Virus record (IMG/VR): IMGVR_UViG_3300042448_001291
DNA length: 64,000 bases
Source of the DNA: an uncultured virus (IMG/VR IMGVR_UViG_3300042448_001291)
Lineage: Duplodnaviria > Heunggongvirae > Uroviricota > Caudoviricetes
Direction: 5' to 3' (one strand)
Part shown: positions 40,338 through 53,370 of the stretch, in pieces
How positions within the stretch are numbered: position 1 is the first letter of the stretch
Layout: each line of letters opens with the position of its first letter
Program-made: the position numbers and the translations under genes
Notes under the pieces: model-generated
What the model was told of the DNA's origin: nothing
What the model saw: only the letters and a program-made list of their open reading frames with translations
Database searches by the model: none

Positions 40338-41516
40338 ATGGGAACATATCAAGAAAACAATAGAAATAGTTTTTATTCTAAAATAGATAAACAAGAGGAT
40401 GTAGTAGGTAGTGGAAAATATCTATTTTCATTATCTGGACAACCAAAAGTTCAACTAAGTTATACTACTTGGGTAAGCACATTATTTAAAGATTTAGAAA
40501 CAACTAAAAAAACATTAGCAAAGTTACAGGCGGCCGGTGCTAAAGAAGGTAACTGGGTTGACAGATTAATACCAACACATAAAGCGTTTTTTGGTGACGA
40601 GCAAAAGTTTATTAAAACATATGCCTGTGATTTAGAATGGGCGAAAACATTAGAGTATTGTAAAACTAGTGCCGATAGCGGTAATCAACAACAAGGAACT
40701 TTAGATGAATATGTGGGATTTTACACAGGTAAAGACGATGAAGGTAAGGATCATAGACAAGAGATAAAAATAAGTGGAACTAATTTAGTTACAAGCACAA
40801 AACATAAAGTTGCTGGTGATCTTACGATAATATTAACACCAACAGGAACTAAAGATATTTTTAGTGTTGACATACAAAATACTTATGTAAAAAGTTCAAG
40901 TGGAACTGCGACATTCACAAGAAATAAAGATGGTAAAGTTTGTAGTATTACGTCTAGTGCAAAAGTAAAACCAGTTATAGGTAAGGAACAATCAATTGAC
41001 GCGACAGCAACAAAAGAAGGTGTTAGTTGTGATGGAGCAACTCCGTCACCAGTGACACAAAATGGCGGACAACAAGGTGGTAACCAAATACAAACACAAT
41101 ATGGTGGAGATTTTCCACCATGCATAGCCAATTATGGTGGAGCAAAAGCATTTTATATTTTAACTGACAATTCAAATAAAAAAGTGTTTGGATTCTCACT
41201 AGATGAAGCCGGAGCAAATAAAATTAAAACAGATAATCCAAACAAACAGTTAGACATCTCTTTAGAAGATTGTAGATTTATGCGTGTTACCGAGGATTAT
41301 GAAGAAATGTTTAATAGAAATTCAGAAGCCCCGAGAAACAAATATTTAATTTTTAGAAAAGACGGATCTTTTATTTCTAATTCATCAGTAAAAAGAGGAA
41401 AATACATATGTACTGAGAATGGTACTAGAACTAGATTAATTGATAGAGAATCAGTTATTAACGAACAAACATTAAGGAAAAAAATTAGGGCAAAACTCTT
41501 AAAACTTATAAAATAA
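40338..41516 (+). CDS. Hypothetical protein with C-terminal INEQTLRKKIRAKLLKLIK motif
   Basis: 392-aa ORF. Confidence 0.75.
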   Translation: MGTYQENNRNSFYSKIDKQEDVVGSGKYLFSLSGQPKVQLSYTTWVSTLFKDLETTKKTLAKLQAAGAKEGNWVDRLIPTHKAFFGDEQKFIKTYACDLEWAKTLEYCKTSADSGNQQQGTLDEYVGFYTGKDDEGKDHRQEIKISGTNLVTSTKHKVAGDLTIILTPTGTKDIFSVDIQNTYVKSSSGTATFTRNKDGKVCSITSSAKVKPVIGKEQSIDATATKEGVSCDGATPSPVTQNGGQQGGNQIQTQYGGDFPPCIANYGGAKAFYILTDNSNKKVFGFSLDEAGANKIKTDNPNKQLDISLEDCRFMRVTEDYEEMFNRNSEAPRNKYLIFRKDGSFISNSSVKRGKYICTENGTRTRLIDRESVINEQTLRKKIRAKLLKLIK

Positions 41517-41530
41517 AGATATTTATTCAT

Positions 41531-41631
41531 AGAGTTTAGATGGTTTGGTCGCCGCTAAACGATAATATGATAAACGAAAAGGAGGTATTCTTAATCTCGG
41601 CAAAGGGGTCCTAAAGACCTCTTTGTTCGTT
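41531..41631 (+). ncRNA. Putative small structured RNA
   Basis: Follows TATTTAT (41520-41526) with no ORF; GTTTAG...CTAAAC hairpin and an AACGAA/TTCGTT multiloop enclosing CAAAGGGGTC/GACCTCTTTG. Confidence 0.45.
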
Positions 41632-41647
41632 AATATAGGCGCCAAAC

Positions 41648-41671
41648 AAAAAACCCATCCGAAGATGGGTT
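41648..41671 (-). terminator. Terminator downstream of tmRNA
   Basis: AACCCATC-TTCG-GATGGGTT followed by a T-run on the minus strand. Confidence 0.8.
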
Positions 41672-41675
41672 AAAG

Positions 41676-42067
41676 TGGAGATGACGGGACTCGAACCCGT
41701 GTCTTTCCTGTTCAACAATAAATGACTACACGTTTATTACAACATTGTTTCTCAATGTTCCGAAATATCAGGTTTGATGTATGTGAGAAACCTACCTGCA
41801 AACAACTTGGTCTCAGAGTTATTTTAAGAGGGCTCTGACCTGTGACCCTCATAACGGACTTCTGTTCCCAGGTTATATGTCCACCGACCCGAGGGTGGCA
41901 CCCAACTTAGTTAGGCAGCCACTTTAGAAGTTGCAAGTAAACCTGCAATTTCCATGTTGTTGTAAACGTTGCCGTTTGAATTTTTTCACCGTAGATTAAA
42001 GTCATAGATGAATTCTGACTACGTGCCATTTATCCCTGATACCTGAAATCAATTCCGTGGCATCCCC
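41676..42067 (-). ncRNA. ssrA: tmRNA; predicted tag (A)GNVYNNMEIAGLLATSKVAA
   Basis: 5' GGGGATG...GGAATTGA; 3' T-arm ACGGGTTCGAGTCCCGT and CATCTCCA with G3:U70; tag frame 41911-41973 ends in AA-stop. Confidence 0.92.
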
Positions 42068-42140
42068 AGATATGTAAATATAGATAAAAAAAGTGAGAAA
42101 TTCTCACTTTTGTTACCCCGCCTATCATTTTTAATTAAAA

Positions 42141-42320
42141 TTACTTACTCTTCTTTGCTGCTGGTTTCTTTGCTGCTGGTTTCTTTGCTTTTTTAGGTTT
42201 TTTAACTTCTTCTACCTTTGCAACTTCAACCGCTTCTTGTACTAAAACAACAGGACTTTCCTGTACCGGAGTACTTGGAGCAAATAATGACTTAACTAGA
42301 TCAATTAACTTCTTTAACAT
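42141..42320 (-). CDS. 59-aa protein with histone-H1-like KKPAAKK tail (not in ORF track)
   Basis: MLKKLIDLVKSLF...KKPKKAKKPAAKKPAAKKSK; upstream TATTTAT. Confidence 0.7.
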   Translation of the reverse strand: MLKKLIDLVKSLFAPSTPVQESPVVLVQEAVEVAKVEEVKKPKKAKKPAAKKPAAKKSK

Positions 42321-42363
42321 AATTTTGTAGATTTATATATAAATATCTTTTGATTTGCGAAAA

Positions 42364-43047
42364 TCAGCGGTCTATCCTTAGGGGTAATAAATGCCCATAT
42401 TTCGCCTCAAAAAACAGTTTATTCTTTTCCCATTGTTTATTAACCATACCAACAGATTTGTGGATCACAAGTACCTTGGTGGTTACCCCCACCTTGACTC
42501 CACTTACATAATTCGATACACAGAACGGAATATCATAAAAGTGAAAACCAGGAAATTCCTCGTCAAACCCGTTCGCAATTCGCGATTTGCAAACTGCGAA
42601 AAATAAGCCATCAACCGCAATAACTTCTTTCATATTTTCACCGTAGGTCCCTGAATAGTTATTTCTATGTACCTTACCTTGATGTTCATGTTTAACTTGA
42701 CCAAACATTGATGCTCTATCTGTCCACCACATACCATTAATTAAATTATCAGTGCCAGCAATTCCAATTATTCCAAATTCTGGATTTTTCTCAAATAATT
42801 TAATAATCTTATTAGTGACATTTGTGGTCTCAATAATAAGATCGTCGTGCATAAAAACAACAATATCATTACTACTTTCATTTAATCCTCTATTGTATAA
42901 TTGAGGTAATGAAAATTCGCCATTATTCTCATAAATTATAATCTCAGTTTTTGGATGAGAAAACATCTTACTAACATGTTTAAGGTAGTCATCATCAATT
43001 TTACGTGTTGATATGACAACACTTATAGGGTAATTATTCTTCGACAT
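42364..43047 (-). CDS. GT2-like glycosyltransferase
   Basis: YNRGLNES, VFMHDDL, VDGLFFA, FHFYD. Confidence 0.85.
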   Translation of the reverse strand: MSKNNYPISVVISTRKIDDDYLKHVSKMFSHPKTEIIIYENNGEFSLPQLYNRGLNESSNDIVVFMHDDLIIETTNVTNKIIKLFEKNPEFGIIGIAGTDNLINGMWWTDRASMFGQVKHEHQGKVHRNNYSGTYGENMKEVIAVDGLFFAVCKSRIANGFDEEFPGFHFYDIPFCVSNYVSGVKVGVTTKVLVIHKSVGMVNKQWEKNKLFFEAKYGHLLPLRIDR

Positions 43048-43783
43048 AGGTTGCTATAATTTGTCCGTCGTATTCGTTTAGATCAACAACGATTGGTTTA
43101 TTTGATGGGTTATAACCTGCGGTACAAGTTGACGCATTAACATATAATGTATCATCTAAATAAGTTACACCGTATCCTTCATGTATATGTCCAAATACGT
43201 TTAATGCTGGTTTAATACGTTCCATGTGAAACCTAAGTGATTCACAGCCAACATTTCTATTGGGTTGTCTAAAATTATTAACTAAATCTAAGACCCCATT
43301 TGGGGGGCTGTGTGTAATTAATACGTCAGTATCGTCAGGGACCATACTCCACTTTTTATCTAGTTCATCACCTAATCTTGGTAAGTTAAATGCCCAATCG
43401 TAGAACCAAGGTTGCCAAGGACTACCGTAAAATTTGATAGGTCTTGAGAACTCAGGAGTTTCAATTGTAATAAAACTATCCTCCAAATAAGTCACGTCAG
43501 ATTGTGATAAATTCTCCGGTGACATTAAATGATTTAACCAATCATAATCTCCTTTATGATGTGGTAAATTAACTCTTTCAAAACAATGGTCGTGATTACC
43601 GGCGATGAATATTTTAGAATCAAATCCTTTTATGTTTTGAAACCAATGTATAAATTCAGTAACGTCTCGTTCACCACCTCTATTCGATATATCACCAGCA
43701 TGTACTAATACGTCACCATCAGGTATTTGGTGCATCATATTGTTTTGCAAACTATGTGTATCTGATATACAAACTATTCTCAT
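43034..43783 (-). CDS. Calcineurin-like metallophosphoesterase
   Basis: ISDTH, HAGD, IAGNHD, LITHSPP, FGHIHE. Confidence 0.92.
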   Translation of the reverse strand: MRIVCISDTHSLQNNMMHQIPDGDVLVHAGDISNRGGERDVTEFIHWFQNIKGFDSKIFIAGNHDHCFERVNLPHHKGDYDWLNHLMSPENLSQSDVTYLEDSFITIETPEFSRPIKFYGSPWQPWFYDWAFNLPRLGDELDKKWSMVPDDTDVLITHSPPNGVLDLVNNFRQPNRNVGCESLRFHMERIKPALNVFGHIHEGYGVTYLDDTLYVNASTCTAGYNPSNKPIVVDLNEYDGQIIATYVEE

Positions 43784-43815
43784 AGTATTAATATAAACAT
43801 TTTATTTTAAAAGGC

Positions 43816-43844
43816 AAAAAAAAAGTCAGAATTTCTTCTGACTT
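43816..43844 (-). terminator. Terminator closing the large ncRNA
   Basis: AAGTCAGAA-GAAA-TTCTGACTT followed by a long T-run. Confidence 0.8.
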
Positions 43845-43854
43845 AATTTTTTTG

Positions 43855-44730
43855 TATAGGCCGTATGGTTTTACATACATTCACCACCACTTTGTTTTTC
43901 TAAACAAAGAAAATAAAACTCTGAGAATACAAGTTTTAACGAAACTCTTTAAAAGGATTATTTGATTCCCCTTATTTCCACTAACTTTTGATTAGTAAGT
44001 TTCAGCCACGGTCAATTAGATTAACCAATCCTTTCGTAACACCCTACTCTATTAGTACTCATCACTCATCAAATCTGCCGACCTGATTCAACCTTGCGGG
44101 TTTAGAGAACTTTCTTAAAAATCATATTGGGCTTGAGACCCTTTATGGCTGTGAACCCCTCACAACTATGTAGTGACCTATCGGACATTACGCACGAACA
44201 CTTTTTCTTTTTATGTATGATTTTTATACCAAAATAAAAATTTAGTTTCCGAATTATTCAGGTAGCGGTTCGTGACCAGCCAAATCACCTTTTGAGCGAC
44301 TCGATACTAAACTACCCGATATGACATCCCTGTCATCATATTTTTGGTTTCCTTCGAGATTAAACCCTTGGTAGGATTTATTCAAGGACACTAACAGCAC
44401 CACCTGTTTTTTGTCATACCTTCCGTCTTACGACGCTACGGTTTTAAGACCACCATTGTATTGAATTACGCAATGATATAGTCGGATAACTATACTTCTT
44501 ACATGAACTCTATGGATTATTCTTATTGATGTTCCCATCTCAACCAAACAACTCGGATTGCTTGGTCATCCAACCCTTTCGCTACGGAGTTACCCTCACT
44601 ACTTCAGGTTAAATGATATTCCACTTGTCTACTCGAGATCCATTTCTGAATCCGCAACTTATCCTAACCAAGGACTTGTCACTTTATCCCACTTTCATGG
44701 TTTATTTTGTTGACCATAGACGGCCAATAT
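43855..44730 (-). ncRNA. Large (~870 nt) structured ncRNA, GOLLD/ROOL-class candidate
   Basis: No convincing ORF; TATATTTG promoter at 44767-44774; terminator below; 5' GGCCGT(CT)ATGGT pairs with 3' ACCATACGGCC; many hairpins. Confidence 0.7.
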
Positions 44731-44809
44731 TTTTAAATCAAAGATCTATTATTGTTACTTGTTATGCAAATATAGAGAAAAGAATTGAAATAAAAAACTT
44801 TTTTTAAAA

Positions 44810-45004
44810 TTATTTCTTTTTATTTTTTTTAACTTCATAACTTCCACCCATATCATGGGTGACTTCTGGGGCCGCTTCAACTTTTTTAACACCTCTCCAC
44901 TCTTCTTTGGATACGTATTTCCATTGATTACCAACCATTTGGTTCGCTTGTTTATCATCAACTCTGATAATGCTACCCGTTTTTACATTTTTTAAACATT
45001 TCAT
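44810..45004 (-). CDS. Small basic hypothetical protein
   Basis: 64-aa ORF. Confidence 0.65.
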   Translation of the reverse strand: MKCLKNVKTGSIIRVDDKQANQMVGNQWKYVSKEEWRGVKKVEAAPEVTHDMGGSYEVKKNKKK

Positions 45005-45033
45005 TTTACAAATTTTAACTAATATAAATAAAA

Positions 45034-45495
45034 TTAAATTCTAACTAAATGGTTTGCTGCATAAGTTGTTAAAGCACCTAAATGTTTATATCTAACTTTA
45101 TACCCCATACCTTCTACTAAACCAACTGCTTGTCTTAAAACACTATTTGATTTAAATTTAGGATCTGGATTCAAATCAATATCAATCCATTTAGGTTTTG
45201 GTAAACCATTTTCTTTTAGATATTCCGCCATTTCAATAGATTTCCAAACCTCATTTAACAACCTAGATGGTGTGTTATATTCCATACCTACTGATTCGCG
45301 AGTGCACAATACATGGGCACCTTTACCTTGTGTGTACAACGCAATAACAACTCCGTAAATTGTTTTTTTGTTACCATAACATTGTGAATCAGACCCTATG
45401 AGAATCTCAACGTTCTCTCTAGTCGAGATGTATTCTCTAACATACTCAATTAAATTTGGAACCGGTGTTCCATAGAGAGTTCTAAATTGTTTCAT
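45034..45495 (-). CDS. RNase H-like YkuK/DUF458 family protein
   Basis: ILIGSDSQ, RLLNEVWKSIE, IDIDLN, AANH. Confidence 0.8.
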   Translation of the reverse strand: MKQFRTLYGTPVPNLIEYVREYISTRENVEILIGSDSQCYGNKKTIYGVVIALYTQGKGAHVLCTRESVGMEYNTPSRLLNEVWKSIEMAEYLKENGLPKPKWIDIDLNPDPKFKSNSVLRQAVGLVEGMGYKVRYKHLGALTTYAANHLVRI

Positions 45496-45522
45496 TTTAT
45501 TTCATTTAATATAGTTATTTTG

Positions 45523-45612
45523 CGGAAAGTGAGGGACTTGAACCCTCGCGCCAGTTTGACCCGACCTAGCAGTTTAGCAAACTGCCCCCTTCACCAACTT
45601 GGGTAACTTTCC
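45523..45612 (-). tRNA. tRNA-Ser(GCT), array 1
   Basis: Cloverleaf; GCAGT-TTGCTAA-ACTGC; long variable arm. Confidence 0.95.
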
Positions 45613-45613
45613 G

Positions 45614-45844
45614 TTAGAAGATTTGTTTTTCTTGTCTTCTTTTTGCTTCTTCGGCCTCCTTTACCATTCTTATCCAAGTAATAGAGACATCAATGGGCGC
45701 TAAAACCCAAGCCATCATTAATACCATAATAGAATCTAGTTCTGGTGATGTTCCGTAATCAACACCTCTGTTTCTATACTTTTTATTTAATTGATAGAAA
45801 CAATAAACAACACATAATACATAATACCCAATTAGTATACTCAT
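45614..45844 (-). CDS. Small membrane protein within tRNA array 1
   Basis: MSILIGYYVLCVV..., two hydrophobic segments. Confidence 0.65.
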   Translation of the reverse strand: MSILIGYYVLCVVYCFYQLNKKYRNRGVDYGTSPELDSIMVLMMAWVLAPIDVSITWIRMVKEAEEAKRRQEKQIF

Positions 45845-45856
45845 AATTAAAAATTT

Positions 45857-45931
45857 TGGTTGTCCCCCAGGGAATCGAACCCCACTTATCTGGACCAAAA
45901 CCAGATGTAATAACCGATATACGAGAGGACA
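45857..45931 (-). tRNA. tRNA-Gln(TTG), array 1
   Basis: TCTGG-TTTTGGT-CCAGA; encoded CCA. Confidence 0.95.
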
Positions 45932-45992
45932 AAATAATCATCATTGAGAATGTAGATTTTCACTAACTCGATTTAGCGGTCTCTTTGATGAT

Positions 45993-46067
45993 TGGAGCAG
46001 ATGAAAGGAATCGAACCTTCGTCTCCAACTTGGAAGGATGGAGTAATAACCATTATACGACATCTGC
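45993..46067 (-). tRNA. tRNA-Gly(TCC), array 1
   Basis: CCATC-CTTCCAA-GTTGG; encoded CCA. Confidence 0.95.
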
Positions 46068-46124
46068 ATTTGGTGACTGAAAAACATCTATCTTTCTTTT
46101 TGGTATTGTCACCGGATACCCATG

Positions 46125-46196
46125 AGCCCCCGCCCGGAATCGAACCGAGTTATCATGATTACAAGTCATGCGCATCGCCTGCAATGCTTAAAGGGC
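46125..46196 (-). tRNA. tRNA-Thr(TGT), array 1
   Basis: CATGA-CTTGTAA-TCATG. Confidence 0.92.
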
Positions 46197-46201
46197 TGTT
46201 G

Positions 46202-46273
46202 AGCAGTAGAGAGGAATCGAACCTCCGTCTCCACCTTGGCAAGGTGGAGTAATGACCATTATACGACTACTGC
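46202..46273 (-). tRNA. tRNA-Gly(GCC), array 1
   Basis: CCACC-TTGCCAA-GGTGG. Confidence 0.95.
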
Positions 46274-46277
46274 ATTG

Positions 46278-46350
46278 TAGAAGATGAGGGAATTGAACCC
46301 CCGACTTTTTGCATGTAAGACAAACACTCTACCAACTGAGTTAATCTTCT
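46278..46350 (-). tRNA. tRNA-Val(TAC), array 1
   Basis: TTTGT-CTTACAT-GCAAA. Confidence 0.95.
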
Positions 46351-46355
46351 ATTTG

Positions 46356-46429
46356 TGGACCAGGATGGACTCGAACCATCGACTTTCACATTATGAGTGT
46401 GCTACTCTAACCAACTGAGTTACAAGTCC
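46356..46429 (-). tRNA. tRNA-Ile2(CAT) (lysidine type; elongator Met not excluded), array 1
   Basis: CACA-CTCATAA-TGTG; G1:C72, A73; not initiator-like; two other CAT tRNAs are in array 2. Confidence 0.8.
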
Positions 46430-46432
46430 AGG

Positions 46433-46538
46433 TGCCGGAGGAAGGATTGATTACCTACACGGTGTCCATTTCGGATACACCACCCACCTAGGAAGGGAAC
46501 GTCTCAAGGTTGTACACACCTCTTTTCGCCACTCCGGC
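46433..46538 (-). ncRNA. Aberrant tRNA-Leu-like RNA (expanded D region, degenerate T loop)
   Basis: Perfect acceptor stem GCCGGAG/CTCCGGC-A; extra AGGT/ACCT hairpin; long variable arm; no TTC in the T loop. Confidence 0.55.
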
Positions 46539-46543
46539 ATGTG

Positions 46544-46700
46544 TGAGTTACGGGGGATTCGAACCCAAGAATATAATTTGTAATCTACTACGTACTCGAT
46601 TAACAACATTCTTTTTACCATAGTCATCTCCGCGGCCACAGAGTTTATAGACACCTTCAATTACTAGGAAGGTCCGGATCGCCACTCCGGAAGGTAACTC
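46544..46700 (-). ncRNA. 157-nt tRNA-like RNA with ~85-nt insertion
   Basis: Acceptor GAGTTAC/GTAACTC-A; GGGTTCGAATCCC T loop; TCCGGA/TCCGGA and CCTTC/GAAGG arms. Confidence 0.55.
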
Positions 46701-46706
46701 ATTTTG

Positions 46707-46787
46707 TGGGAGTAAGTGGACTCGAACCACTGAACTCGATGAGGGGGGATTTACAGTCCCCTGCAATTGCCGCTATGCGATACTCCC
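46707..46787 (-). tRNA. tRNA-Tyr(GTA), array 1
   Basis: GGGGA-CTGTAAA-TCCCC. Confidence 0.95.
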
Positions 46788-46833
46788 ATTCTGTACATTC
46801 CTAACCTGACGTATACATACAAACCGTTTTCCG

Positions 46834-46914
46834 TGACCAAGGAGAGATTCGAACTCTCACGTCTTTCGACATTGGTTCCTAAGACCAACGTGTCTACCAT
46901 TCCACCACTCGGCC
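46834..46914 (-). tRNA. tRNA-Leu(TAG), array 1
   Basis: TTGGT-CTTAGGA-ACCAA; long variable arm. Confidence 0.95.
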
Positions 46915-46919
46915 ATTTG

Positions 46920-46991
46920 CGTCCCTACCTGGATTCGAACCAAGAATAATTGATTAACAGTCAAACGTGATCACCATTTCACCATAGAGAC
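46920..46991 (-). tRNA. tRNA-Asn(GTT), array 1
   Basis: TTGA-CTGTTAA-TCAA. Confidence 0.92.
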
Positions 46992-46998
46992 ATTTTTG

Positions 46999-47072
46999 TC
47001 GAGATAGCAGGATTCGAACCTACGGCCTCTTGCTCCCAAAGCAAGCGCGATACCGGACTACGCTATATCTCG
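46999..47072 (-). tRNA. tRNA-Pro(TGG), array 1
   Basis: CTTGC-TTTGGGA-GCAAG. Confidence 0.95.
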
Positions 47073-47079
47073 ATGATTG

Positions 47080-47151
47080 TAGACCCACGTGGACTCGAAC
47101 CACGAATATCTCATTAGAAGTGAGAAGTTATATCCCTTTAACTATGGATCC
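47080..47151 (-). tRNA. tRNA-Arg(TCT), array 1
   Basis: TCTCA-CTTCTAA-TGAGA. Confidence 0.95.
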
Positions 47152-47159
47152 AATTGCTG

Positions 47160-47246
47160 TGCCCCAGGCGGGAATCGAACCCGCACGAACATTTACGGTT
47201 CACGGGATTTTAAGTCCCGCGCGTCTACCAGTTCCGCCACCAGGGC
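47160..47246 (-). tRNA. tRNA-Leu(TAA), first gene of array 1
   Basis: CGGGA-CTTAAAA-TCCCG; long variable arm. Confidence 0.95.
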
Positions 47247-47302
47247 AATTTTACACAATATGTCAAAGATCTAACTAATATAGGAAATAAACCCAAGAAA
47301 AC

Positions 47303-47335
47303 AAAAAACCCGAACTTTTTTTAAGGTTCGGGTTT
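47303..47335 (-). terminator. Attenuator terminator upstream of tRNA array 1
   Basis: AAACCCGAAC-CTTAAAAAAA-GTTCGGGTTT followed by TTTGTTTT. Confidence 0.85.
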
Positions 47336-47365
47336 CGATATTTTGATGTTTTAAATCCTAATTTC

Positions 47366-47464
47366 TCACAACTCCGAACTTGATACACATAACTGCACAC
47401 CATACCCGTTACCATTGTTACCCGGTCTACTCGTAAGCGTCAATATGTTATTTAAATTCTTCAT
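47366..47464 (-). CDS. 32-aa leader peptide of tRNA array 1: MKNLNNILTLTSRPGNNGNGYGVQLCVSSSEL
   Basis: ATG..TGA between promoter and terminator; codons 3-25 all match array-1 anticodons. Confidence 0.85.
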   Translation of the reverse strand: MKNLNNILTLTSRPGNNGNGYGVQLCVSSSEL

Positions 47465-47482
47465 CGTTATTATAAGTATATG

Positions 47483-47513
47483 CAAATATATAAAAGTTTT
47501 TTGAAAAAACAAC
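47483..47513 (-). promoter_or_regulatory. Bacteroidetes-type sigma promoter for leader 1
   Basis: GTTG-19 nt-TATATTTG (consensus TTTG-19..21-TAnnTTTG). Confidence 0.7.
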
Positions 47514-47578
47514 TATATTGAAAAAATTTGTTTAATAATTAAGAAATATTCTTTATATTGCATTATAAAATCTTAATT

Positions 47579-48100
47579 ATGAATCTAAGAGAAGCCACTG
47601 CGGAATTACATAGTAAAGCAGAAAAAATGGAATTTAACCAAAAAATGTTTAGAGGTGAATTGAGTAAGAAAGAGTACTTACATTACCTTATCCAACAATC
47701 AGTAATATTTCAATGTATTGAGGAACACACATTACCACAAATAACACCTGAATTAAAAAGATTAAAAAATGTCTTTGAGGATATTCAAGAGTTACAAAAA
47801 GATGTAAGAGATAAATTGCCAGGATTAGAATCAACAAAAAAATATGGTATCTATTTGGAATCATTAAAAGGAGAAAAAGTTCTTGCTCATGTTTATTTAA
47901 ATTACTTAGCGTTGGTTTTTGGTGGCCAAATGATGAAATCTAAAGTTCCTGGTAATGGTAAAATGTATATGTTTGAGAATGTTCAAGAAGTAATTCAAAA
48001 TGTGAGAGGATTTCAAACTGATGACATGGCTGAAGAAGTAAATAAAGGTTTTAATTTTATAATTGATATATTAGATGAATTACAAAAAAACGCTGGATAG
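47579..48100 (+). CDS. Heme oxygenase (HemO/Ho1-like)
   Basis: LREATAELHSKAE proximal His; LAHVYLNYLALVFGGQMMK distal helix. Confidence 0.88.
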   Translation: MNLREATAELHSKAEKMEFNQKMFRGELSKKEYLHYLIQQSVIFQCIEEHTLPQITPELKRLKNVFEDIQELQKDVRDKLPGLESTKKYGIYLESLKGEKVLAHVYLNYLALVFGGQMMKSKVPGNGKMYMFENVQEVIQNVRGFQTDDMAEEVNKGFNFIIDILDELQKNAG

Positions 48101-48710
48101 TATTGCAAATCGAATACAAGATTTAATAACAATTACCGCTAACGGTGTTGAAATTCCTACTGAAGATTTTGGTTGGAAAAATAAAAGATATGTTGGTAGT
48201 AAGTTTCGTATCGCACATATAGAAAGATACTCCGATAAAAATCTAGAAGTATTACACTTTACGTGTTTTCCAGATTCAACATATCAACACCCAATTTTTG
48301 GTTTTGATATTATTACAACAGATAAGAAACCACTTGCAGCATTTTTAGATTGGTCTCCGGTTGATAATGTTTTAAGTTATATATGTCTTGAAGAATTTAA
48401 AAAACTATACCCATTACCTGAATGGGCTAAAATTATTTTTTCACAAACACCAATAGCAATTATTCCAGATGATTCTGAAATGGAAAAATTAGGAGAAGTT
48501 GTAATTCAAAGTTTTGAAGATTATTTAACTATTTTAAATAATTCGACCCCATCAATTAAAAGATCGAATTACATTATTGCAGCACAAAATAGATATTGTG
48601 AACAACAGCAAAAAAACGAAAGGACATATAATGTGTTAAAAGCAAAACTTGGCGAAGAAAAGGCCAAGTTCTTTATGTCAGAAATTTTATTCCCAAGAAT
48701 CGCAAATTAA
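48075..48710 (+). CDS. Ferredoxin-dependent bilin reductase (PcyA/PcyX-like)
   Basis: FRIAHIE, EVLHFTCFP, PIFGFDI, FLDWSP, LPEWA..IFS, QNRYCEQQQKNERT...LFP. Confidence 0.85.
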   Translation: MNYKKTLDSIANRIQDLITITANGVEIPTEDFGWKNKRYVGSKFRIAHIERYSDKNLEVLHFTCFPDSTYQHPIFGFDIITTDKKPLAAFLDWSPVDNVLSYICLEEFKKLYPLPEWAKIIFSQTPIAIIPDDSEMEKLGEVVIQSFEDYLTILNNSTPSIKRSNYIIAAQNRYCEQQQKNERTYNVLKAKLGEEKAKFFMSEILFPRIAN

Positions 48711-48883
48711 AATCCTCTCCTTTTGTAAACACGGCTAGGTGCACGATACAAAATATTTGGTTGATATTTTCCTATCGTTGCTTTTCTTTTAAAATGATTA
48801 TGATATCTGTGATGATGTGGTTTAATTATTACACAGCCACTTAACGTAGCAATAATCAGTATAAAAAATATTATCTTTTTCAT
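48707..48883 (-). CDS. 58-aa His/Arg-rich lipoprotein (not in ORF track)
   Basis: MKKIIFFILIIATLSGC lipobox, then HHHRYHNH; upstream TATTTAT. Confidence 0.6.
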   Translation of the reverse strand: MKKIIFFILIIATLSGCVIIKPHHHRYHNHFKRKATIGKYQPNILYRAPSRVYKRRGF

Positions 48884-48899
48884 ACTAATAAATATCCAG

Positions 48900-48971
48900 T
48901 ACTCGGTACGGGATTCGAACCCGTGCTACGTCCGTGAAAGGGACGCGACCTAACCACTAGTCGAACCGAGC
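48900..48971 (-). tRNA. tRNA-Glu(TTC), array 2
   Basis: CGTCC-CTTTCAC-GGACG. Confidence 0.95.
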
Positions 48972-48976
48972 AAGTG

Positions 48977-49062
48977 CGGAGAGAGTAGGATTCGAACCCA
49001 CGGTACCTTTCAGTACTTCGGTTTTCAAGACCGACGCGATAGACCAACTCTGCCATCTCTCC
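48977..49062 (-). tRNA. tRNA-Ser(TGA), array 2
   Basis: TCGGT-CTTGAAA-ACCGA; long variable arm. Confidence 0.95.
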
Positions 49063-49064
49063 GT

Positions 49065-49250
49065 TGACACCTTCATTTATCCAACTCACAGGTGTCTTAG
49101 ATGTCCCCTTTCGGGTTAGGAATAATCATTTCGTCCTCACGAGGTCGGGGTGATGTCCCCTGACGTTCTCCCTATACGTCAATGTACGTTTCCATATGGT
49201 GGTCAAACCATTTCTTTTCATATTGGATATACTATTCAGTGACTAACCGA
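49065..49250 (-). ncRNA. Putative structured RNA between tRNA-Asp and tRNA-Ser
   Basis: Hairpins TGACGT/ACGTCA, GGGG/CCCC, CCT-CGTG-AGG, CCC-GAAA-GGG, GACACCT/AGGTGTC. Confidence 0.5.
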
Positions 49251-49256
49251 ATCGTG

Positions 49257-49330
49257 CGGACTGTACGGGACTCGAACCCGTGAACTCTACCGTGACAGGG
49301 TAGCATGATAACCAACTTCACCAACAATCC
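49257..49330 (-). tRNA. tRNA-Asp(GTC), array 2
   Basis: CTACC-CTGTCAC-GGTAG. Confidence 0.95.
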
Positions 49331-49414
49331 GTGTTTGATACTAACTCACCTTAAATTGCACCTACTGGTCATGCCATGGTTAACAAAGTCCTCGTTGAGT
49401 TAGATCAAAAAAGG

Positions 49415-49601
49415 TTACAGGTTTTTCGTACCCATTCGTACATCATAACAAATACATTTCTATATCTGTGGTTACATTTTCGTCATTGGGTTAATTACAC
49501 CCGACTTGTAGCAACTCTACTTTCACCGCTATGATACCGCGAATCAAGACGGGTGTTAAGATTTATAGACAGTGGGTTTCCACCACCGTCGTCACCTGTA
49601 A
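49415..49601 (-). ncRNA. Putative ~190-nt multibranch RNA
   Basis: Closing stem TTACAGGT/ACCTGTAA around arms GACGGTGG/CCACTGTC, ACACCCG/CGGGTGT, ACCCA/TGGGT. Confidence 0.55.
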
Positions 49602-49606
49602 TTTCT

Positions 49607-49726
49607 TTACTTTCTTCTACGCTGACGTAAAGCGCAGCCAGCAACAGATTTATATGCTTTTGTAGTTCTTTTACTTCTTAAAGCACTACTTGCTTTTCTT
49701 GCCACTCTTCTTGACGTTCTAGCCAT
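49607..49726 (-). CDS. 39-aa Arg/Lys-rich protein
   Basis: MARTSRRVARKASSALRSKRTTKAYKSVAGCALRQRRRK. Confidence 0.65.
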   Translation of the reverse strand: MARTSRRVARKASSALRSKRTTKAYKSVAGCALRQRRRK

Positions 49727-49741
49727 AGTTAAAAGTTTTTG

Positions 49742-49813
49742 TTGCGAGGGAAGGGATCGAACCTCCGACCTTTGGGTTATGAGCCCAACGAGCCACCGCT
49801 GCTCTACCTCGCG
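49742..49813 (-). tRNA. tRNA-fMet(CAT), array 2
   Basis: C1:A72 mismatch; TTGGG-CTCATAA-CCCAA with three G:C pairs. Confidence 0.95.
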
Positions 49814-49870
49814 ATGTTTTGCAAATATAGAAAATATTTTTAAAATAAAAAAATATTCCAAATATTTTTG

Positions 49871-49939
49871 TTGCGGGGCCAGGAATCGAACCTGAATATC
49901 TGGCTTATGAGACCAAACGGATTACCTAATCTCCCCACA
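49871..49939 (-). tRNA. tRNA-Met(CAT) with short D arm, array 2
   Basis: TTGGT-CTCATAA-GCCAG; acceptor TGTGGGG/CCCCGCA. Confidence 0.8.
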
Positions 49940-49940
49940 A

Positions 49941-50017
49941 TGGGGTGATCGACGGGATTCGAACCCGCTTTATTCTAGTGCCACAAACTAGTGCTCCACC
50001 GTACGAGCATCGATCAC
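49941..50017 (-). tRNA. tRNA-His(GTG), array 2
   Basis: CTAGT-TTGTGGC-ACTAG; C73 and encoded CCA. Confidence 0.92.
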
Positions 50018-50019
50018 AG

Positions 50020-50090
50020 AGTCACGTGCAGGAATCGAACCTGCGTAGAAGGTTTTGCAGACCTCCGCCTAACCACTCGGCCAACCTGAC
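50020..50090 (-). tRNA. tRNA-Cys(GCA), array 2
   Basis: GAGGT-CTGCAAA-ACCTT; U73. Confidence 0.95.
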
Positions 50091-50097
50091 TTATTTG

Positions 50098-50168
50098 AGG
50101 TCTCACAGGGATTCGAACCCCAATCATCTCGTCCGTAGCGAGACGTTTTTCCATTAAACTATGAAACC
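50098..50168 (-). tRNA. tRNA-Arg(ACG), array 2
   Basis: TCTCG-CTACGGA-CGAGA. Confidence 0.95.
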
Positions 50169-50172
50169 ATTT

Positions 50173-50592
50173 TTATAGGCAATTTTGCTTATATTTTTCC
50201 TCAGTACCAATTCCAATTGGGACAAACAACGCAAAACCATCGTCATCTTCAAAATGGTTACAAGTATCCTCAAATACATTTTGAAATTTTGTTCTCATAT
50301 AAACAAATTCCTTTCCATTCCATTTGGCCACTTGTGCGTTCCTGTGTTCACCAATATAATATTGACCCTCAACTAAATCTTTTTTAGGGATTGCACCTGC
50401 CTCAATTAATTTTGGGACATAATAATCCTTCCATTCCTGAATGTCTACTTTTGGTAAATCAGGTACGTCCCTTGGAGTATTAATTTTTGGGAGATTTTCC
50501 CAATACTCTTTTATTCTTTGTTTTCTTTCCTCTCTTATTTGGATAAGTTGTGCTTTCGCTTTTAACTTAAATCCTTCTACGTTGTTTTCCAT
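50173..50592 (-). CDS. Hypothetical protein within tRNA array 2
   Basis: 139-aa ORF. Confidence 0.75.
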   Translation of the reverse strand: MENNVEGFKLKAKAQLIQIREERKQRIKEYWENLPKINTPRDVPDLPKVDIQEWKDYYVPKLIEAGAIPKKDLVEGQYYIGEHRNAQVAKWNGKEFVYMRTKFQNVFEDTCNHFEDDDGFALFVPIGIGTEEKYKQNCL

Positions 50593-50632
50593 ATTTTACA
50601 AATTGTAAGTGTTTTACTTTACATATTATTAG

Positions 50633-50703
50633 CACGGGTAGAGAGATTCGAACTCCCATCGAGGGTTTTGGAGACCCGTATGCTGCCGTTGCACCATACC
50701 CGC
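50633..50703 (-). tRNA. tRNA-Trp(CCA), array 2
   Basis: GGGT-CTCCAAA-ACCC; G73. Confidence 0.95.
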
Positions 50704-50708
50704 GTGTG

Positions 50709-50782
50709 TGACCCCTTTAGGACTCGAACCTAAAACCCCTACATTAAAAGTGTAGTGCGCTAACCAATTGTGCCAAGAGATC
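50709..50782 (-). tRNA. tRNA-Lys(TTT), array 2
   Basis: CTACA-CTTTTAA-TGTAG. Confidence 0.95.
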
Positions 50783-50842
50783 ATACTAACATTTTTTTGC
50801 ACACTAACATAAATTATGTTATCGTACAAATTTTTGTTATTG

Positions 50843-50915
50843 TGGAACCTCGGAGAGTCGAACTCCATCCTCTGGATTTTCAGTCCAGCGTACGCACCGG
50901 CTATACAAAAGTTCC
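50843..50915 (-). tRNA. tRNA-Phe(GAA), array 2
   Basis: CTGGA-CTGAAAA-TCCAG. Confidence 0.95.
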
Positions 50916-50920
50916 TTCAG

Positions 50921-50993
50921 TTCTTAGGGGTAGATTCGAACTACCAACCTCCTCGGTATCAGCGAGGTACTCTCACCATTGAGTTACCTAAGA
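50921..50993 (-). tRNA. tRNA-Ile(GAT), array 2
   Basis: CCTCG-CTGATAC-CGAGG. Confidence 0.92.
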
Positions 50994-50998
50994 ATTTG

Positions 50999-51068
50999 TG
51001 GACACGTTGGGAATCGAACCCATTCACTCTGATTGCAAATCAGGTGGTCTGCCATTGACATCCGGCCC
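50999..51068 (-). tRNA. tRNA-Ala(TGC), first gene of array 2 (irregular acceptor stem)
   Basis: CTGA-TTTGCAA-TCAG; G3:U70. Confidence 0.8.
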
Positions 51069-51151
51069 ATTTATATTGTGCCAAAACTAACTTTTTTTAT
51101 GAGATTTGGCCACTTATAGAAAATCATAACCGGCCAAAACCCACATAAAAC

Positions 51152-51186
51152 AAAAAAACCTCGAGATTTTTAAGTCCCGAGGTTTT
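51152..51186 (-). terminator. Attenuator terminator upstream of tRNA array 2
   Basis: AAAACCTCGGGA-CTTAAAAA-TCTCGAGGTTTT followed by TTTGTTTT. Confidence 0.85.
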
Positions 51187-51209
51187 CTAATATTTTAAGT
51201 TAAACTAGT

Positions 51210-51308
51210 TTAACCAACATCAGTGTCATCGAGACATATGGACATAGAACGCTCATCCGCCCATTTTGAACAGATTGTAAACGACATTGTATGTTTTGTT
51301 TGTCTCAT
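51210..51308 (-). CDS. 32-aa leader peptide of tRNA array 2: MRQTKHTMSFTICSKWADERSMSICLDDTDVG
   Basis: ATG..TAA between promoter and terminator; 17 of codons 5-23 match array-2 anticodons. Confidence 0.85.
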   Translation of the reverse strand: MRQTKHTMSFTICSKWADERSMSICLDDTDVG

Positions 51309-51338
51309 TGAATTTTGTTTTGTTTTAATCTTCTTTTG

Positions 51339-51370
51339 CAAAGATAATAATAAATACTCTTAAAAACAAG
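51339..51370 (-). promoter_or_regulatory. Bacteroidetes-type promoter for leader 2 with embedded TATTTAT
   Basis: CTTG-20 nt-TATCTTTG; TATTTAT at 51350-51356. Confidence 0.7.
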
Positions 51371-51384
51371 AAAAGTTTAAAAAT

Positions 51385-52173
51385 TTATTTACCCCAGTGC
51401 TTTATTCTTAATTCATCCATATCAATTGGTTCACGTTTCATATGATTACCCCTTGAGAAATTTGCACCTTTTTTAAGATACCCACCCAAAAAGTTTCTTC
51501 GCATTCTATTTGAATTATTTGGTTCAGACCCATGAACGCAATGTGAGTGTAATAGCACAACCTGACCTTTTCGAAGATATCCCTCTACCTTACGAAAATC
51601 ATGACCTTCTGGCATCACACATGGTTTACCTCTTTCATTACTCCAAAATGCTGGGTTTGTTTTAGTTCTTTCTTCATCCACCTCAATTGGTAATACTGGA
51701 AGACGATGCGAACCCTCATAATTCCAAACTGCACCATTTTCAGGGTCATGATTATCTAACGCTAATGCGGTGTTAATAATCTCGTTATGACCACATTTGG
51801 TATAAAAGGCGTTCTGATGTTGGTCGCGACCTAATTGTCCTGGCGGTTTAAAATAACACCAACTTTGCATTCCCTGGATTTCACCCTCCATTAAAAATTC
51901 AACCGCTTCTAGAATTTTTGGGTGAGCGAATAATTTTTCTAATTTATCAGAAAGTTTATGTGGGTAAGCAAACGGATCCCATTCACACCATATTTTACCG
52001 TCTGGGGCTTCGGTCCCGGTTCTTTCGTTTCTTAACCTATCTAATTCATCGTTTATCTCATCACATTCTTCTTCAGTTAATAGTTCCAAGGTGGTAAACC
52101 CCCTATATCTCCAATCAAATGTTATTTGTTGAACCTCAAGGTCACTAAGATGTTTAAAATTACTCATATACAT
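51385..52173 (-). CDS. Phytanoyl-CoA dioxygenase (PhyH)-family 2OG-Fe(II) oxygenase
   Basis: FKPPG...HQNAFY, ALDNHDPENG...GSH, HGSEPNNSNRMRR. Confidence 0.85.
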   Translation of the reverse strand: MYMSNFKHLSDLEVQQITFDWRYRGFTTLELLTEEECDEINDELDRLRNERTGTEAPDGKIWCEWDPFAYPHKLSDKLEKLFAHPKILEAVEFLMEGEIQGMQSWCYFKPPGQLGRDQHQNAFYTKCGHNEIINTALALDNHDPENGAVWNYEGSHRLPVLPIEVDEERTKTNPAFWSNERGKPCVMPEGHDFRKVEGYLRKGQVVLLHSHCVHGSEPNNSNRMRRNFLGGYLKKGANFSRGNHMKREPIDMDELRIKHWGK

Positions 52174-52221
52174 GTTTTAATACCCTAAATTAAATAAAAA
52201 AATACTTATTGTAAAGAAAAC

Positions 52222-52587
52222 ATGGGCATAATTCCGATTACTTGGTATATAGAAACACCTATAGATTTTGAACACAAGCAGTATATCCTATTGTCTTATC
52301 TGCAACATGTTGACGCTAGTTTTATTGAAAAACGACTATCACCGCATCTTTTACATATGGAGAATATGCTCAAAGAACTCAATATGTTTGATGAAAGGTT
52401 CTTAACTATACTAAAGGATTTCGATAAAAATAGATACAAATTCTTCGAAAATCCAAAATTAGACGGAGAAGATAATGAGTTGGTTTATGAAATAAAAGAT
52501 GTTGTTGATTTTTCAATTCCTCAGGTAAAAACCAGATTAGCGCTGGGATATAAGATACTAGAAAGACACTCCCAAATTTTGTTCTAA
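52222..52587 (+). CDS. Hypothetical protein
   Basis: 121-aa ORF, PIDFEHKQYILL. Confidence 0.7.
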   Translation: MGIIPITWYIETPIDFEHKQYILLSYLQHVDASFIEKRLSPHLLHMENMLKELNMFDERFLTILKDFDKNRYKFFENPKLDGEDNELVYEIKDVVDFSIPQVKTRLALGYKILERHSQILF

Positions 52588-52725
52588 TAATTTTTCCGGC
52601 AATATATATGCCCTATTTGCCTTGCCCGATATTTATTTATGGCAAGAAGATACTAAATGTGTCTCTACTTTTAACATGGTGGAGCATATGTTGAGTTAAC
52701 CCTTCTTTATTTAAAACTTAATTTT

Positions 52726-53370
52726 ATGCAGAAAATCAAAACAATTTCAAGGAATCTAGGCGATTACATCGTTTATGCCTTTTTATCATTAGCAATACTA
52801 TTCGTTGTATTTGCACTTATCGCTCAACTATTCTTTGTATTTTTAGAGTTTAGCGGTAGAAGTGAAACTGCAGCACAAATAGCAAGAGAATTTACTTGGA
52901 AGTTTGATGGCACGTTTAAAAACGACCCTAACAACATATTCTATAATGCCGACGAACATGTGTACGTTGAAAGTGTTGTTAATAATGTTAAAATAGGAAA
53001 ATTAGCCGGAAATAGAAACTTAGAATTTGGGGTAAAAAACATACTGGAGGAGTTCTTACAAGATAAGGGGTATGATTTGACGCCAAGTGCACAAAATAAA
53101 TTAAAAGTAGAAATAGTGTATCTAGATGTTTTAACCACAAAAAAGAATGTGTCGGTATTTCATAAAAACGAAGAAGAAGTGGTTATAAGAATGAAAGGTG
53201 TCTTATATAAAGATGGTAAAAAAGAAAAGGAGATTATTGTTGAAGAAGGTTCTTCAGAAATATCAATGTCTAGTTTAATTGTTGATGAAGGTGGTCAATT
53301 TAACCAAACATCATTAAGTAACGCAATAAAGAAAACTTGCGATAAATTGGTTCAAAAATTATTTAATTAA
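52726..53370 (+). CDS. Membrane-anchored protein, possible CsgG/TolB-N-like fold
   Basis: N-terminal TM; FGVKNILEEFL; FNQTSLSNAIKK resembles FNQSTISIATKK in 59715. Confidence 0.55.
   Translation: MQKIKTISRNLGDYIVYAFLSLAILFVVFALIAQLFFVFLEFSGRSETAAQIAREFTWKFDGTFKNDPNNIFYNADEHVYVESVVNNVKIGKLAGNRNLEFGVKNILEEFLQDKGYDLTPSAQNKLKVEIVYLDVLTTKKNVSVFHKNEEEVVIRMKGVLYKDGKKEKEIIVEEGSSEISMSSLIVDEGGQFNQTSLSNAIKKTCDKLVQKLFN

What the first reader, a model, noticed from the sequence alone, without database searches (positions are those of the whole stretch)
47303..47513. Leader 1: 23 consecutive codons decodable by array-1 tRNAs, plus an antiterminator
Codons 3-25 are AAT TTA AAT AAC ATA TTG ACG CTT ACG AGT AGA CCG GGT AAC AAT GGT AAC GGG TAT GGT GTG CAG TTA. 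They map to Asn(GTT), Leu(TAA), Ile2(CAT), Thr(TGT), Leu(TAG), Ser(GCT), Arg(TCT), Pro(TGG), Gly(GCC), Gly(TCC), Tyr(GTA), Val(TAC) and Gln(TTG), which is all 13 array-1 tRNAs and nothing else (allowing U34 wobble). G-ending codons (ACG, CCG, GGG, GTG, CAG) stand out in an AT-rich genome and may increase stalling sensitivity (inference). Codons 29-32 contain GTTCGGAGTT (47370-47379), a near copy of the terminator 3' arm GTTCGGGTT; it can pair with the 5' arm AACCCGAAC (9 bp, one bulge). A ribosome at the TGA stop would cover this segment and let the terminator form. The ATA codon independently supports calling the array-1 CAT tRNA Ile2.
Basis: partly seen in the sequence, partly recalled or inferred. 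Interest (0 to 1): 0.9.

Follow-up and report, generated by a model that had tools for sequence, protein, structure and literature searches.

The report
Leader-peptide attenuator gating phage tRNAs
A giant freshwater phage puts a tiny translated test gene, spelled in the codons its own spare tRNAs read, and a switchable transcription stop in front of each block of tRNA genes, so it probably makes a set of tRNAs only when ribosomes run short of them.

Summary
Confirmed. Codons 3-25 of a 32-codon ORF (47464-47366, minus strand) are all read by the 13 array-1 tRNAs and cover every one; 3 of 2,000,000 simulated ORFs hold such a run. A second leader (51308-51210) covers all 12 array-2 kinds, and the two arrays split the 61 sense codons without overlap. 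In relatives, 544 of 595 sensor codons match the leader's own array, against 154 of 296 tail codons. Leader content changes when tRNAs move between arrays. The antiterminator changes with the terminator (47 of 48 leaders, 6 of 85 control terminators). The run ends where a ribosome would begin to cover the antiterminator. A boxA-like motif follows terminator 1. Best reading: ribosome-mediated attenuation that senses shortage of particular tRNAs. Against: the terminator wins at equilibrium, no protector hairpin is predicted, most tRNAs have one codon, no expression data. Similar leaders head tRNA arrays in bacterial genomes. Ten paper searches found no description; this scan noted the same kind of element before on other DNA (59 findings).

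The parts
47483..47512 (-). Bacteroidota sigma-A-type promoter (TTG, 19 nt, TAnnTTTG -7 box at 47490-47483); start of transcription about 47478
   Evidence: one of only two full TTG-N17-23-TAnnTTTG matches on the minus strand in 41000-53000, the other heads leader 2; consensus from PMC6847099
47366..47464 (-). Leader ORF 1, 32 codons; A at -3 and -6 of the ATG
   Evidence: frame kept in relatives, indels in the sensor part are multiples of 3; no Pfam match
47390..47458 (-). Sensor, codons 3-25: Asn x6, Gly x4, Leu x4, Thr x2, and one each for Ile2, Ser(GCT), Arg(TCT), Pro, Tyr, Val, Gln
47402..47413 (-). Second segment (codons 18-21) predicted to pair with the terminator 5' arm when the ribosome is at codons 11-14
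   Evidence: folding prediction only
47370..47379 (-). Antiterminator segment (copy of the terminator 3' arm)
47300..47335 (-). Intrinsic terminator hairpin and U-tract, 33 nt after the leader stop to the G+C core
   Evidence: -13.9 kcal/mol; the scan listed this hairpin only on the + strand
47256..47271 (-). boxA-like motif between terminator and first tRNA
45522..47246 (-). tRNA array 1: Leu(TAA) Arg(TCT) Pro(TGG) Asn(GTT) Leu(TAG) Tyr(GTA) CAT(Ile2) Val(TAC) Gly(GCC) Thr(TGT) Gly(TCC) Gln(TTG) Ser(GCT)
51339..51369 (-). Promoter of leader 2 (-7 box 51346-51339)
51210..51308 (-). Leader ORF 2, 32 codons; codons 3-21 cover 12 of 12 array-2 kinds (15 own, 4 other-array codons)
51227..51235 (-). 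Antiterminator segment of leader 2
51150..51188 (-). Terminator 2
48899..51068 (-). tRNA array 2: Ala(TGC) Ile(GAT) Phe Lys Trp Arg(ACG) Cys His Met fMet Asp Ser(TGA) Glu
   Evidence: (Ala at 50999-51068 found by Rfam, missed by ARAGORN)

Best explanation
A ribosome-controlled transcription attenuator that meters the phage's supply of its own tRNAs. Host RNA polymerase starts at a Bacteroidota-type promoter (inferred from motif). A ribosome translates the leader, whose codons 3-25 sample every tRNA of the downstream array (shown). If these tRNAs are plentiful the ribosome passes codon 25, covers the antiterminator segment, the terminator folds and transcription stops before tRNA-Leu (predicted by folding). 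If one is cut, depleted or unmodified, the ribosome lags at or before codon 25, the antiterminator pairs with the terminator 5' arm before the 3' arm emerges, and polymerase reads on (inferred; must be kinetic), probably loading Nus factors at the boxA-like motif (inferred). New tRNAs restore leader translation, closing a negative feedback loop (inferred). Leader 2 does the same for the complementary array.
For: Run statistics. 15 distinct two-leader loci, 30 leaders: 544 own against 51 other-array codons in the sensor, 154 against 142 in the tail; all 30 above expectation; 23 of 30 cover every own tRNA kind. Isoacceptor split: AGR 20/CGN 0 in leader-1 sensors, 0/17 in leader-2; ATA 31/ATY 3 against 0/29; AGY 17/TCN 9 against 0/37. 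Natural experiments: in L028 Asp and Glu tRNAs sit in array 1 and their codons moved to leader 1 (1 and 2) and left leader 2 (0), the reverse of the other 14 loci; in L035-L038 Thr and Val sit in array 2, leader 1 has no Thr codon and leader 2 has a Val codon; L048 has a differently composed array and a matching leader (9 of 9 kinds, 22 of 26 codons against 0.37 expected); 6 of 11 single-array leaders hold all 20 amino acids in the sensor and 9 of 11 at least 19. These fall in about four separate parts of the tree. Antiterminator: own pairing -11.5 against -5.0 for swapped arms, best match in the last 45 nt in 48 of 48, 10 arm variants, two reading frames in each family; -9 or better in 47 of 48 leaders against 6 of 85 other terminators. 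Geometry: arm sequestered 0.85-0.99 for A-site codons 2-25, 0.56 at 26, 0.34 at the stop; sensor above stop in 47 of 48 leaders. No TAnnTTTG between terminator 1 and tRNA-Leu. Leader-peptide attenuation is reported as likely for amino-acid operons of a flavobacterium (PMC9723704, passage).
Against: No expression or ribosome data. With the whole terminator present it wins at every ribosome position (-13.9 against -12.0). No 1:2 protector: without a ribosome the arm is sequestered (0.91 here; above 0.5 in 38 of 48), so general failure of translation would also open it. 8 of 13 tRNAs have a single sensor codon, a weak signal by the standard of the 7-Phe run of pheL (PMC3082878). Tracking is imperfect: leader 2 has Thr codons in 15 of 15 loci wherever Thr sits; L021 and L028 keep one Thr in leader 1; L035-L038 keep one Val in leader 1; Lys codons stay where no Lys tRNA was found (L012, L013, L028); L030 and L039 keep full leaders over 4-5 tRNA kinds. 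Relatives are homologous, so pooled counts are not independent. The sensor boundary rests on an assumed footprint. For leader 2 of the window sequestration dips to 0.29 at codon 15 and stays near 0.6 at codons 23-29. Uncoupled transcription-translation is widespread in some bacteria (PMC7858274) and was not checked for this host.
Confidence: 0.8

Rival explanations
1. Same RNA switch, but it reports general translation failure (ribosome damage, initiation block, antibiotics, infection stage); codon matching only adds to this.
For: No protector hairpin, so an untranslated leader is predicted to read through; single codons per tRNA; single-array phages and bacterial arrays use pan-amino-acid leaders; one bacterial array lies behind rtcB and a release-factor homologue, and rtcB has its own leader and terminator.
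Against: A general sensor has no reason to exclude other-array codons from 23 consecutive positions, to split Ser, Arg and Ile isoacceptors between leaders, or to follow Asp/Glu/Thr moves. Not exclusive with the best explanation.
Confidence: 0.12
2. The leader senses amino-acid starvation (uncharged tRNA), as in trp or his, rather than loss of tRNA molecules.
For: Mechanically identical at the ribosome; six Asn and four Gly codons could respond to starvation.
Against: More tRNA does not cure lack of an amino acid (reasoning); matching is by anticodon, not amino acid.
Confidence: 0.05
3. A small-peptide gene with its own terminator; the arrays are transcribed from separate promoters and the codon match is chance or history.
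For: Peptide sequence is partly conserved; a TAnnTTTG-like octamer lies between terminator 2 and tRNA-Ala, and the fMet tRNA has its own -7 box; the window's antiterminator alone is not significant.
Against: Run probability 1.5e-6; codons follow tRNA moves; antiterminator conserved as nucleotides in different frames and co-varying with the arm; no such octamer after terminator 1; the one after terminator 2 has G at a position where PMC6847099 says G is nearly absent; phages with reduced arrays that I inspected (L016, L031, L034, L045) show no leader.
Confidence: 0.03

Closest known systems
Leader-peptide transcription attenuators of amino-acid operons (pheL-pheA, read in PMC3082878; trpL, hisL, multivalent thrL and ilvL, and pheM-pheST recalled)
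   Same: Promoter, short translated leader, regulatory codons matched to the downstream product, antiterminator in the 3' part of the leader exclusive with an intrinsic terminator.
   Different: Controls tRNA genes, not enzymes; samples 12-13 tRNA species mostly once each instead of runs; matched by anticodon; no predicted 1:2 protector; two complementary copies; in a phage.
Cyanobacterial L-array trn operon of Anabaena PCC 7120 (PMC8421152, passages)
   Same: Long spare tRNA array induced when translation is impaired; linked to rtcB.
   Different: Regulated through direct repeats at the promoter; the words attenuation, leader peptide and terminator do not occur in that paper.
Phage tRNAs as a counter to tRNA-cutting defences (PMC10264068 passages; PMC11464382 and PMC11555353 listings only)
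   Same: Supplies the likely purpose: replacing depleted host tRNAs.
   Different: No sensing or regulation of the phage tRNA genes described in the passages seen.
T-box riboswitch (Rfam; T-boxes before some clostridial tRNA genes are recalled, not checked)
   Same: Terminator/antiterminator switch responding to tRNA status.
   Different: T-box binds one tRNA directly without translation; no T-box match in the window.
rRNA operon boxA antitermination (PMC10931766, passages)
   Same: The motif after terminator 1 matches a 16-mer found in Bacteroidota rRNA spacers.
   Different: Here it follows an attenuator and precedes phage tRNAs; Nus binding untested; absent from most leader-2 loci.

Membership tests
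Leader-peptide transcription attenuator (trp/phe/his type) | Promoter directly upstream of a short leader ORF | tested here: met
   Motif match at both leaders only; motif, not activity
Leader-peptide transcription attenuator (trp/phe/his type) | Regulatory codons related to the downstream product, placed where a stalled ribosome leaves the antiterminator free | tested here: met
Leader-peptide transcription attenuator (trp/phe/his type) | Intrinsic terminator between leader and regulated genes | tested here: met
   stop-to-arm 24-35 nt, median 27
Leader-peptide transcription attenuator (trp/phe/his type) | Mutually exclusive antiterminator (2:3) overlapping the leader's 3' part | tested here: met
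   predicted only before the 3' arm emerges
Leader-peptide transcription attenuator (trp/phe/his type) | 1:2 pause/protector hairpin that sequesters the antiterminator segment | tested here: not met
   Without a ribosome the arm stays sequestered: 0.91 here, above 0.5 in 38 of 48
Leader-peptide transcription attenuator (trp/phe/his type) | Tandem runs of the sensed codon; downstream genes make or charge that amino acid | tested here: not met
   8 of 13 tRNAs have one codon; downstream genes are tRNAs
Leader-peptide transcription attenuator (trp/phe/his type) | Leader is translated and stalling raises read-through | not testable with these tools
   Needs ribosome profiling and reporters
T-box riboswitch | Stem I with specifier loop and T-box antiterminator bulge | tested here: not met
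   No Rfam T-box match at gathering score in the window
Anabaena-type L-array regulation | Direct repeats over the promoter controlling induction | not tested
   Not searched; described in PMC8421152
rrn boxA element | Same sequence and position class as the host rRNA spacer motif | tested here: met
   88 of 122 genome matches lie in rRNA spacers or before 16S, 3 before tRNA operons; 14 of 20 checked by Rfam have 23S just downstream
rrn boxA element | Binds NusB-NusE and causes antitermination | not testable with these tools
   -
bS21-encoding huge Bacteroidetes phages (PMC9723584) | Phage bS21 gene, 290-330 kb genome, up to 25 tRNAs | tested here: inconclusive
   2 of 2 near-complete relatives (G001, G002; 324 and 311 kb) carry bS21; the window's own genome is not held

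The most novel reading that the evidence does not exclude
A general, anticodon-resolved homeostat for tRNA supply: phages and their Bacteroidota hosts place leader attenuators before spare tRNA arrays (and RNA-repair genes), rewrite the leader when tRNAs move between arrays, and so let a phage detect which tRNAs a host defence nuclease has cut and switch on only the array that replaces them.
Probability: 0.55. Interest if true: 0.92.

Novelty: new variant of a known kind. Interest (0 to 1): 0.82.

Why it matters
Why phages carry tRNAs is a long-standing question, with codon compensation and countering host tRNA depletion as the main answers (PMC10264068). A switch that opens the array only when those very tRNAs are short would be direct evidence for on-demand replacement, and it is testable with a 200-nt reporter. 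It extends attenuation from enzymes to tRNA genes, gives a way to read from sequence which tRNAs a phage monitors (and to assign CAT tRNAs to Ile2), and offers natural multiplexed sensors for tRNA-cutting defences.

Tried and rejected
No whole genome is held for the window. No RNA holder was listed; no evidence either way. No cultured close relative: best phage records under 60% identity for the neighbouring RNase H-like protein, no match for the leader peptide, only tRNA-level DNA matches. The sigma-70 scan was at chance level (43 against 42.9) and is the wrong promoter type. RNAalifold-style covariation within the leader-1 family was not run because the paired core is invariant; covariation was tested across families instead. 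The apparent loss of antitermination at codons 11-14 proved to be a second pairing that also sequesters the arm. G-ending codons as a sensitivity device: not supported. The degenerate boxA pattern is not rare in the window (3 found, 4.0 expected), and the pattern was drawn from these loci; only its position and the genome search count. Phage TilS: 0 of 2 relatives. Leader finder: 49 distinct ORFs in 50 of 79 tRNA-bearing loci, window included; L080 was dropped as weak, and four starts (L012, L013, L051, L062) were set by hand. Of the 29 loci without a call I inspected only some: L016, L031, L034, L045 show no leader, L067 and L049 have one that the finder missed, L024 and array 1 of L044 stayed unresolved. 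The Fisher p-value is not used, since rows are homologous. Look-up of earlier findings by sequence and for the bacterial version returned nothing.

Full report
Context. The window holds 26 tRNA genes in two minus-strand arrays, a GOLLD RNA and a tmRNA. Its RNase H-like gene beside array 1 retrieved 80 viral loci at 52-93% identity. Two near-complete relatives of 311 and 324 kb carry a bS21 gene (2 of 2), which points to the freshwater Bacteroidetes-infecting huge phages of PMC9723584 (passages seen; the words leader and terminator do not occur there). The window's own genome is not held.

Observation. The 32-codon ORF 47464-47366 has codons 3-25 all in the set read by array 1, covering 13 of 13 tRNAs; one codon needs four-way wobble. 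Background is 51.7%; 3 of 2,000,000 simulated ORFs hold such a run, and it is the longest in the window's six frames. With the array-1 CAT read as Ile2, arrays 1 and 2 read 33 and 28 codons, no overlap and none missing. A second 32-codon ORF, 51308-51210, covers 12 of 12 array-2 kinds (simulated chance 4e-4). Each ORF lies between a Bacteroidota-type promoter, the only two full matches on that strand in 41000-53000 (consensus from PMC6847099, passages), and an intrinsic terminator.

Relatives. One finder (terminator, upstream ORF, downstream tRNA) gave 49 distinct leaders in 50 of 79 tRNA-bearing loci; I dropped L080 and set four starts by hand. tRNAs missed by ARAGORN were rescued by BLAST and nhmmer. 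In 15 distinct loci with both leaders, the part upstream of the antiterminator has 544 own-array and 51 other-array codons, the tail 154 and 142; 23 of 30 sensors cover every own tRNA kind. The split is by anticodon for Arg, Ile and largely Ser. These rows are homologous, so the rearrangements carry the weight: Asp and Glu codons swap leaders in L028, where those tRNAs sit in array 1; Thr codons vanish from leader 1 and a Val codon appears in leader 2 in L035-L038, where both tRNAs sit in array 2; L048 has a different array and a leader matching it 9 of 9; single-array phages have longer leaders, 6 of 11 with all 20 amino acids. On a tree of 42 RNase H-like proteins these are about four separate groups, though many inner branches are weak. 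Exceptions: Thr codons are in all 15 leader-2 sensors, including the window's, some stray Val, Thr and Lys codons persist, and L030 and L039 keep full leaders over shrunken arrays. Four reduced arrays that I inspected have no leader.

RNA switch. The segment 47379-47370 pairs with the terminator 5' arm (9 bp, one bulge). Alone this could be chance (236 of 2000 shuffles). Across relatives the six-base core is invariant in 19 of 19 leader-1 sequences while its flanks vary, it occurs in two reading frames in each family, ten arm variants are each matched by their own segment (-11.5 against -5.0 swapped; own best in 31 of 41), and the best match is in the last 45 nt in 48 of 48. 47 of 48 leader terminators have such a segment against 6 of 85 others. 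Folding the transcript up to the terminator loop with an assumed ribosome footprint, the arm is sequestered for A-site codons 2-25 and released from 26 on, where the run ends; 47 of 48 leaders show the same direction. Against: once the 3' arm is out the terminator wins everywhere, so the switch must act by folding order, and no protector hairpin is predicted, so an untranslated leader should read through.

boxA. 19 of 20 leader-1 loci, 1 of 15 leader-2 loci and 2 of 9 others have a G[AT]TCTTTGA-type motif between terminator and first tRNA. That is the position of rrn boxA (PMC10931766, passages). Function is inferred.

Bacterial counterpart. Two of those three tRNA-operon matches have a leader ORF and terminator upstream (L110, L175). 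L175 lies in G004 after nitrate-reductase-like genes, rtcB, an RF-1-domain gene and a TPR gene; rtcB has its own short leader and terminator. In 301 genomes of the family of G004, 19 matched; of 19 loci examined (six overlapping ones left out), 12 hold 10 or more tRNAs and 8 of these have a terminator with a 38-44 codon ORF of 16-19 amino-acid kinds ending 27-30 nt before it; 6 of 8 have a pairing of -8 or better in the last 45 nt. This is suggestive and less tested than the phage case.

Mechanism. Shown: codon matching, its tracking of array content, and a conserved, co-varying alternative pairing. Predicted: switch point at codon 25/26. Inferred: translation of the leader, coupling to host polymerase, response to tRNA loss, feedback, Nus loading. 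Anticodon-level matching and single codons favour sensing of tRNA loss over amino-acid starvation; general stalling probably opens it too.

Comparison and novelty. It works like pheL-type attenuation (PMC3082878, passages), and such attenuation is thought to exist in flavobacteria (PMC9723704, passage), but it lacks the predicted protector, the codon runs and the biosynthetic target, so I file it as a variant, not a member. The Anabaena trn array is the closest in purpose but is controlled at the promoter (PMC8421152, passages). Ten searches (listings and abstract starts seen) and passages of PMC6409571, PMC10264068 and PMC7858274 showed no leader-peptide control of tRNA genes; the library lacks most subscription papers and I saw no supplements. 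This scan has noted the same kind of element on other DNA (59 findings in at least 54 genomes; boxA in one); those are unchecked notes and are not counted as support.

Verdict. Real, non-random and conserved; most likely a tRNA-sensing attenuator (0.8). New variant of a known kind; interest 0.82.

Noticed in passing
window 43918-44319 (-), with 44767-44774 and 44735-44746: GOLLD RNA downstream of array 1; an upstream -7 box and a boxA-like motif suggest its own untranslated transcript.
   Followed up: partly
window 41673-42067 (-): Phage tmRNA (Rfam), followed by a terminator at 41671-41652; another translation-rescue part.
   Followed up: no
window 47558-48710 (+): Heme oxygenase and ferredoxin-dependent bilin reductase genes inserted between the two arrays on the opposite strand: a bilin pathway in a phage with Bacteroidota-type signals.
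   Followed up: no
window 49822-49829 (-): Separate -7 box directly before the initiator tRNA, so the distal part of array 2 (fMet, Asp, Ser, Glu) may also be transcribed independently of leader 2.
   Followed up: partly
window 46430-46700 (-): Gap in array 1 with tRNA-like T-arm fragments not called by ARAGORN or Rfam; relatives show similar repeated T-arm-like ends.
   Followed up: no
window 49607-49724 (-): Short, very basic ORF (39 codons, Arg/Lys/Ala/Ser-rich) after the initiator tRNA.
   Followed up: no
window 50999-51068 (-): Divergent tRNA-Ala(TGC) missed by ARAGORN here and in several relatives.
   Followed up: yes
L119:380-780: Host-type operon Arg(TCT), boxA-like motif, Leu(TAA), Pro(TGG), CAT with a promoter and no leader: the same tRNAs that open phage array 1.
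   Followed up: partly
L209:4900-9545 (G004:C150): rtcB, RF-1-domain and TPR genes behind a short leader and terminator, then a leader-headed array of at least 10 tRNAs in a bacterial genome.
   Followed up: partly
L208:1214-2236 (G003:C176): WYL/WCX-domain gene divergent from a leader, terminator, boxA-like motif and tRNA-Ser.
   Followed up: partly
L067:7952-8134: 31-codon leader holding all 20 amino acids before the Phe-led array, missed by the finder because its U-tract is interrupted.
   Followed up: partly
L036, L038, L044 array 1: tRNA-Ile(TAT) sits next to the CAT tRNA, consistent with both serving AUA.
   Followed up: no
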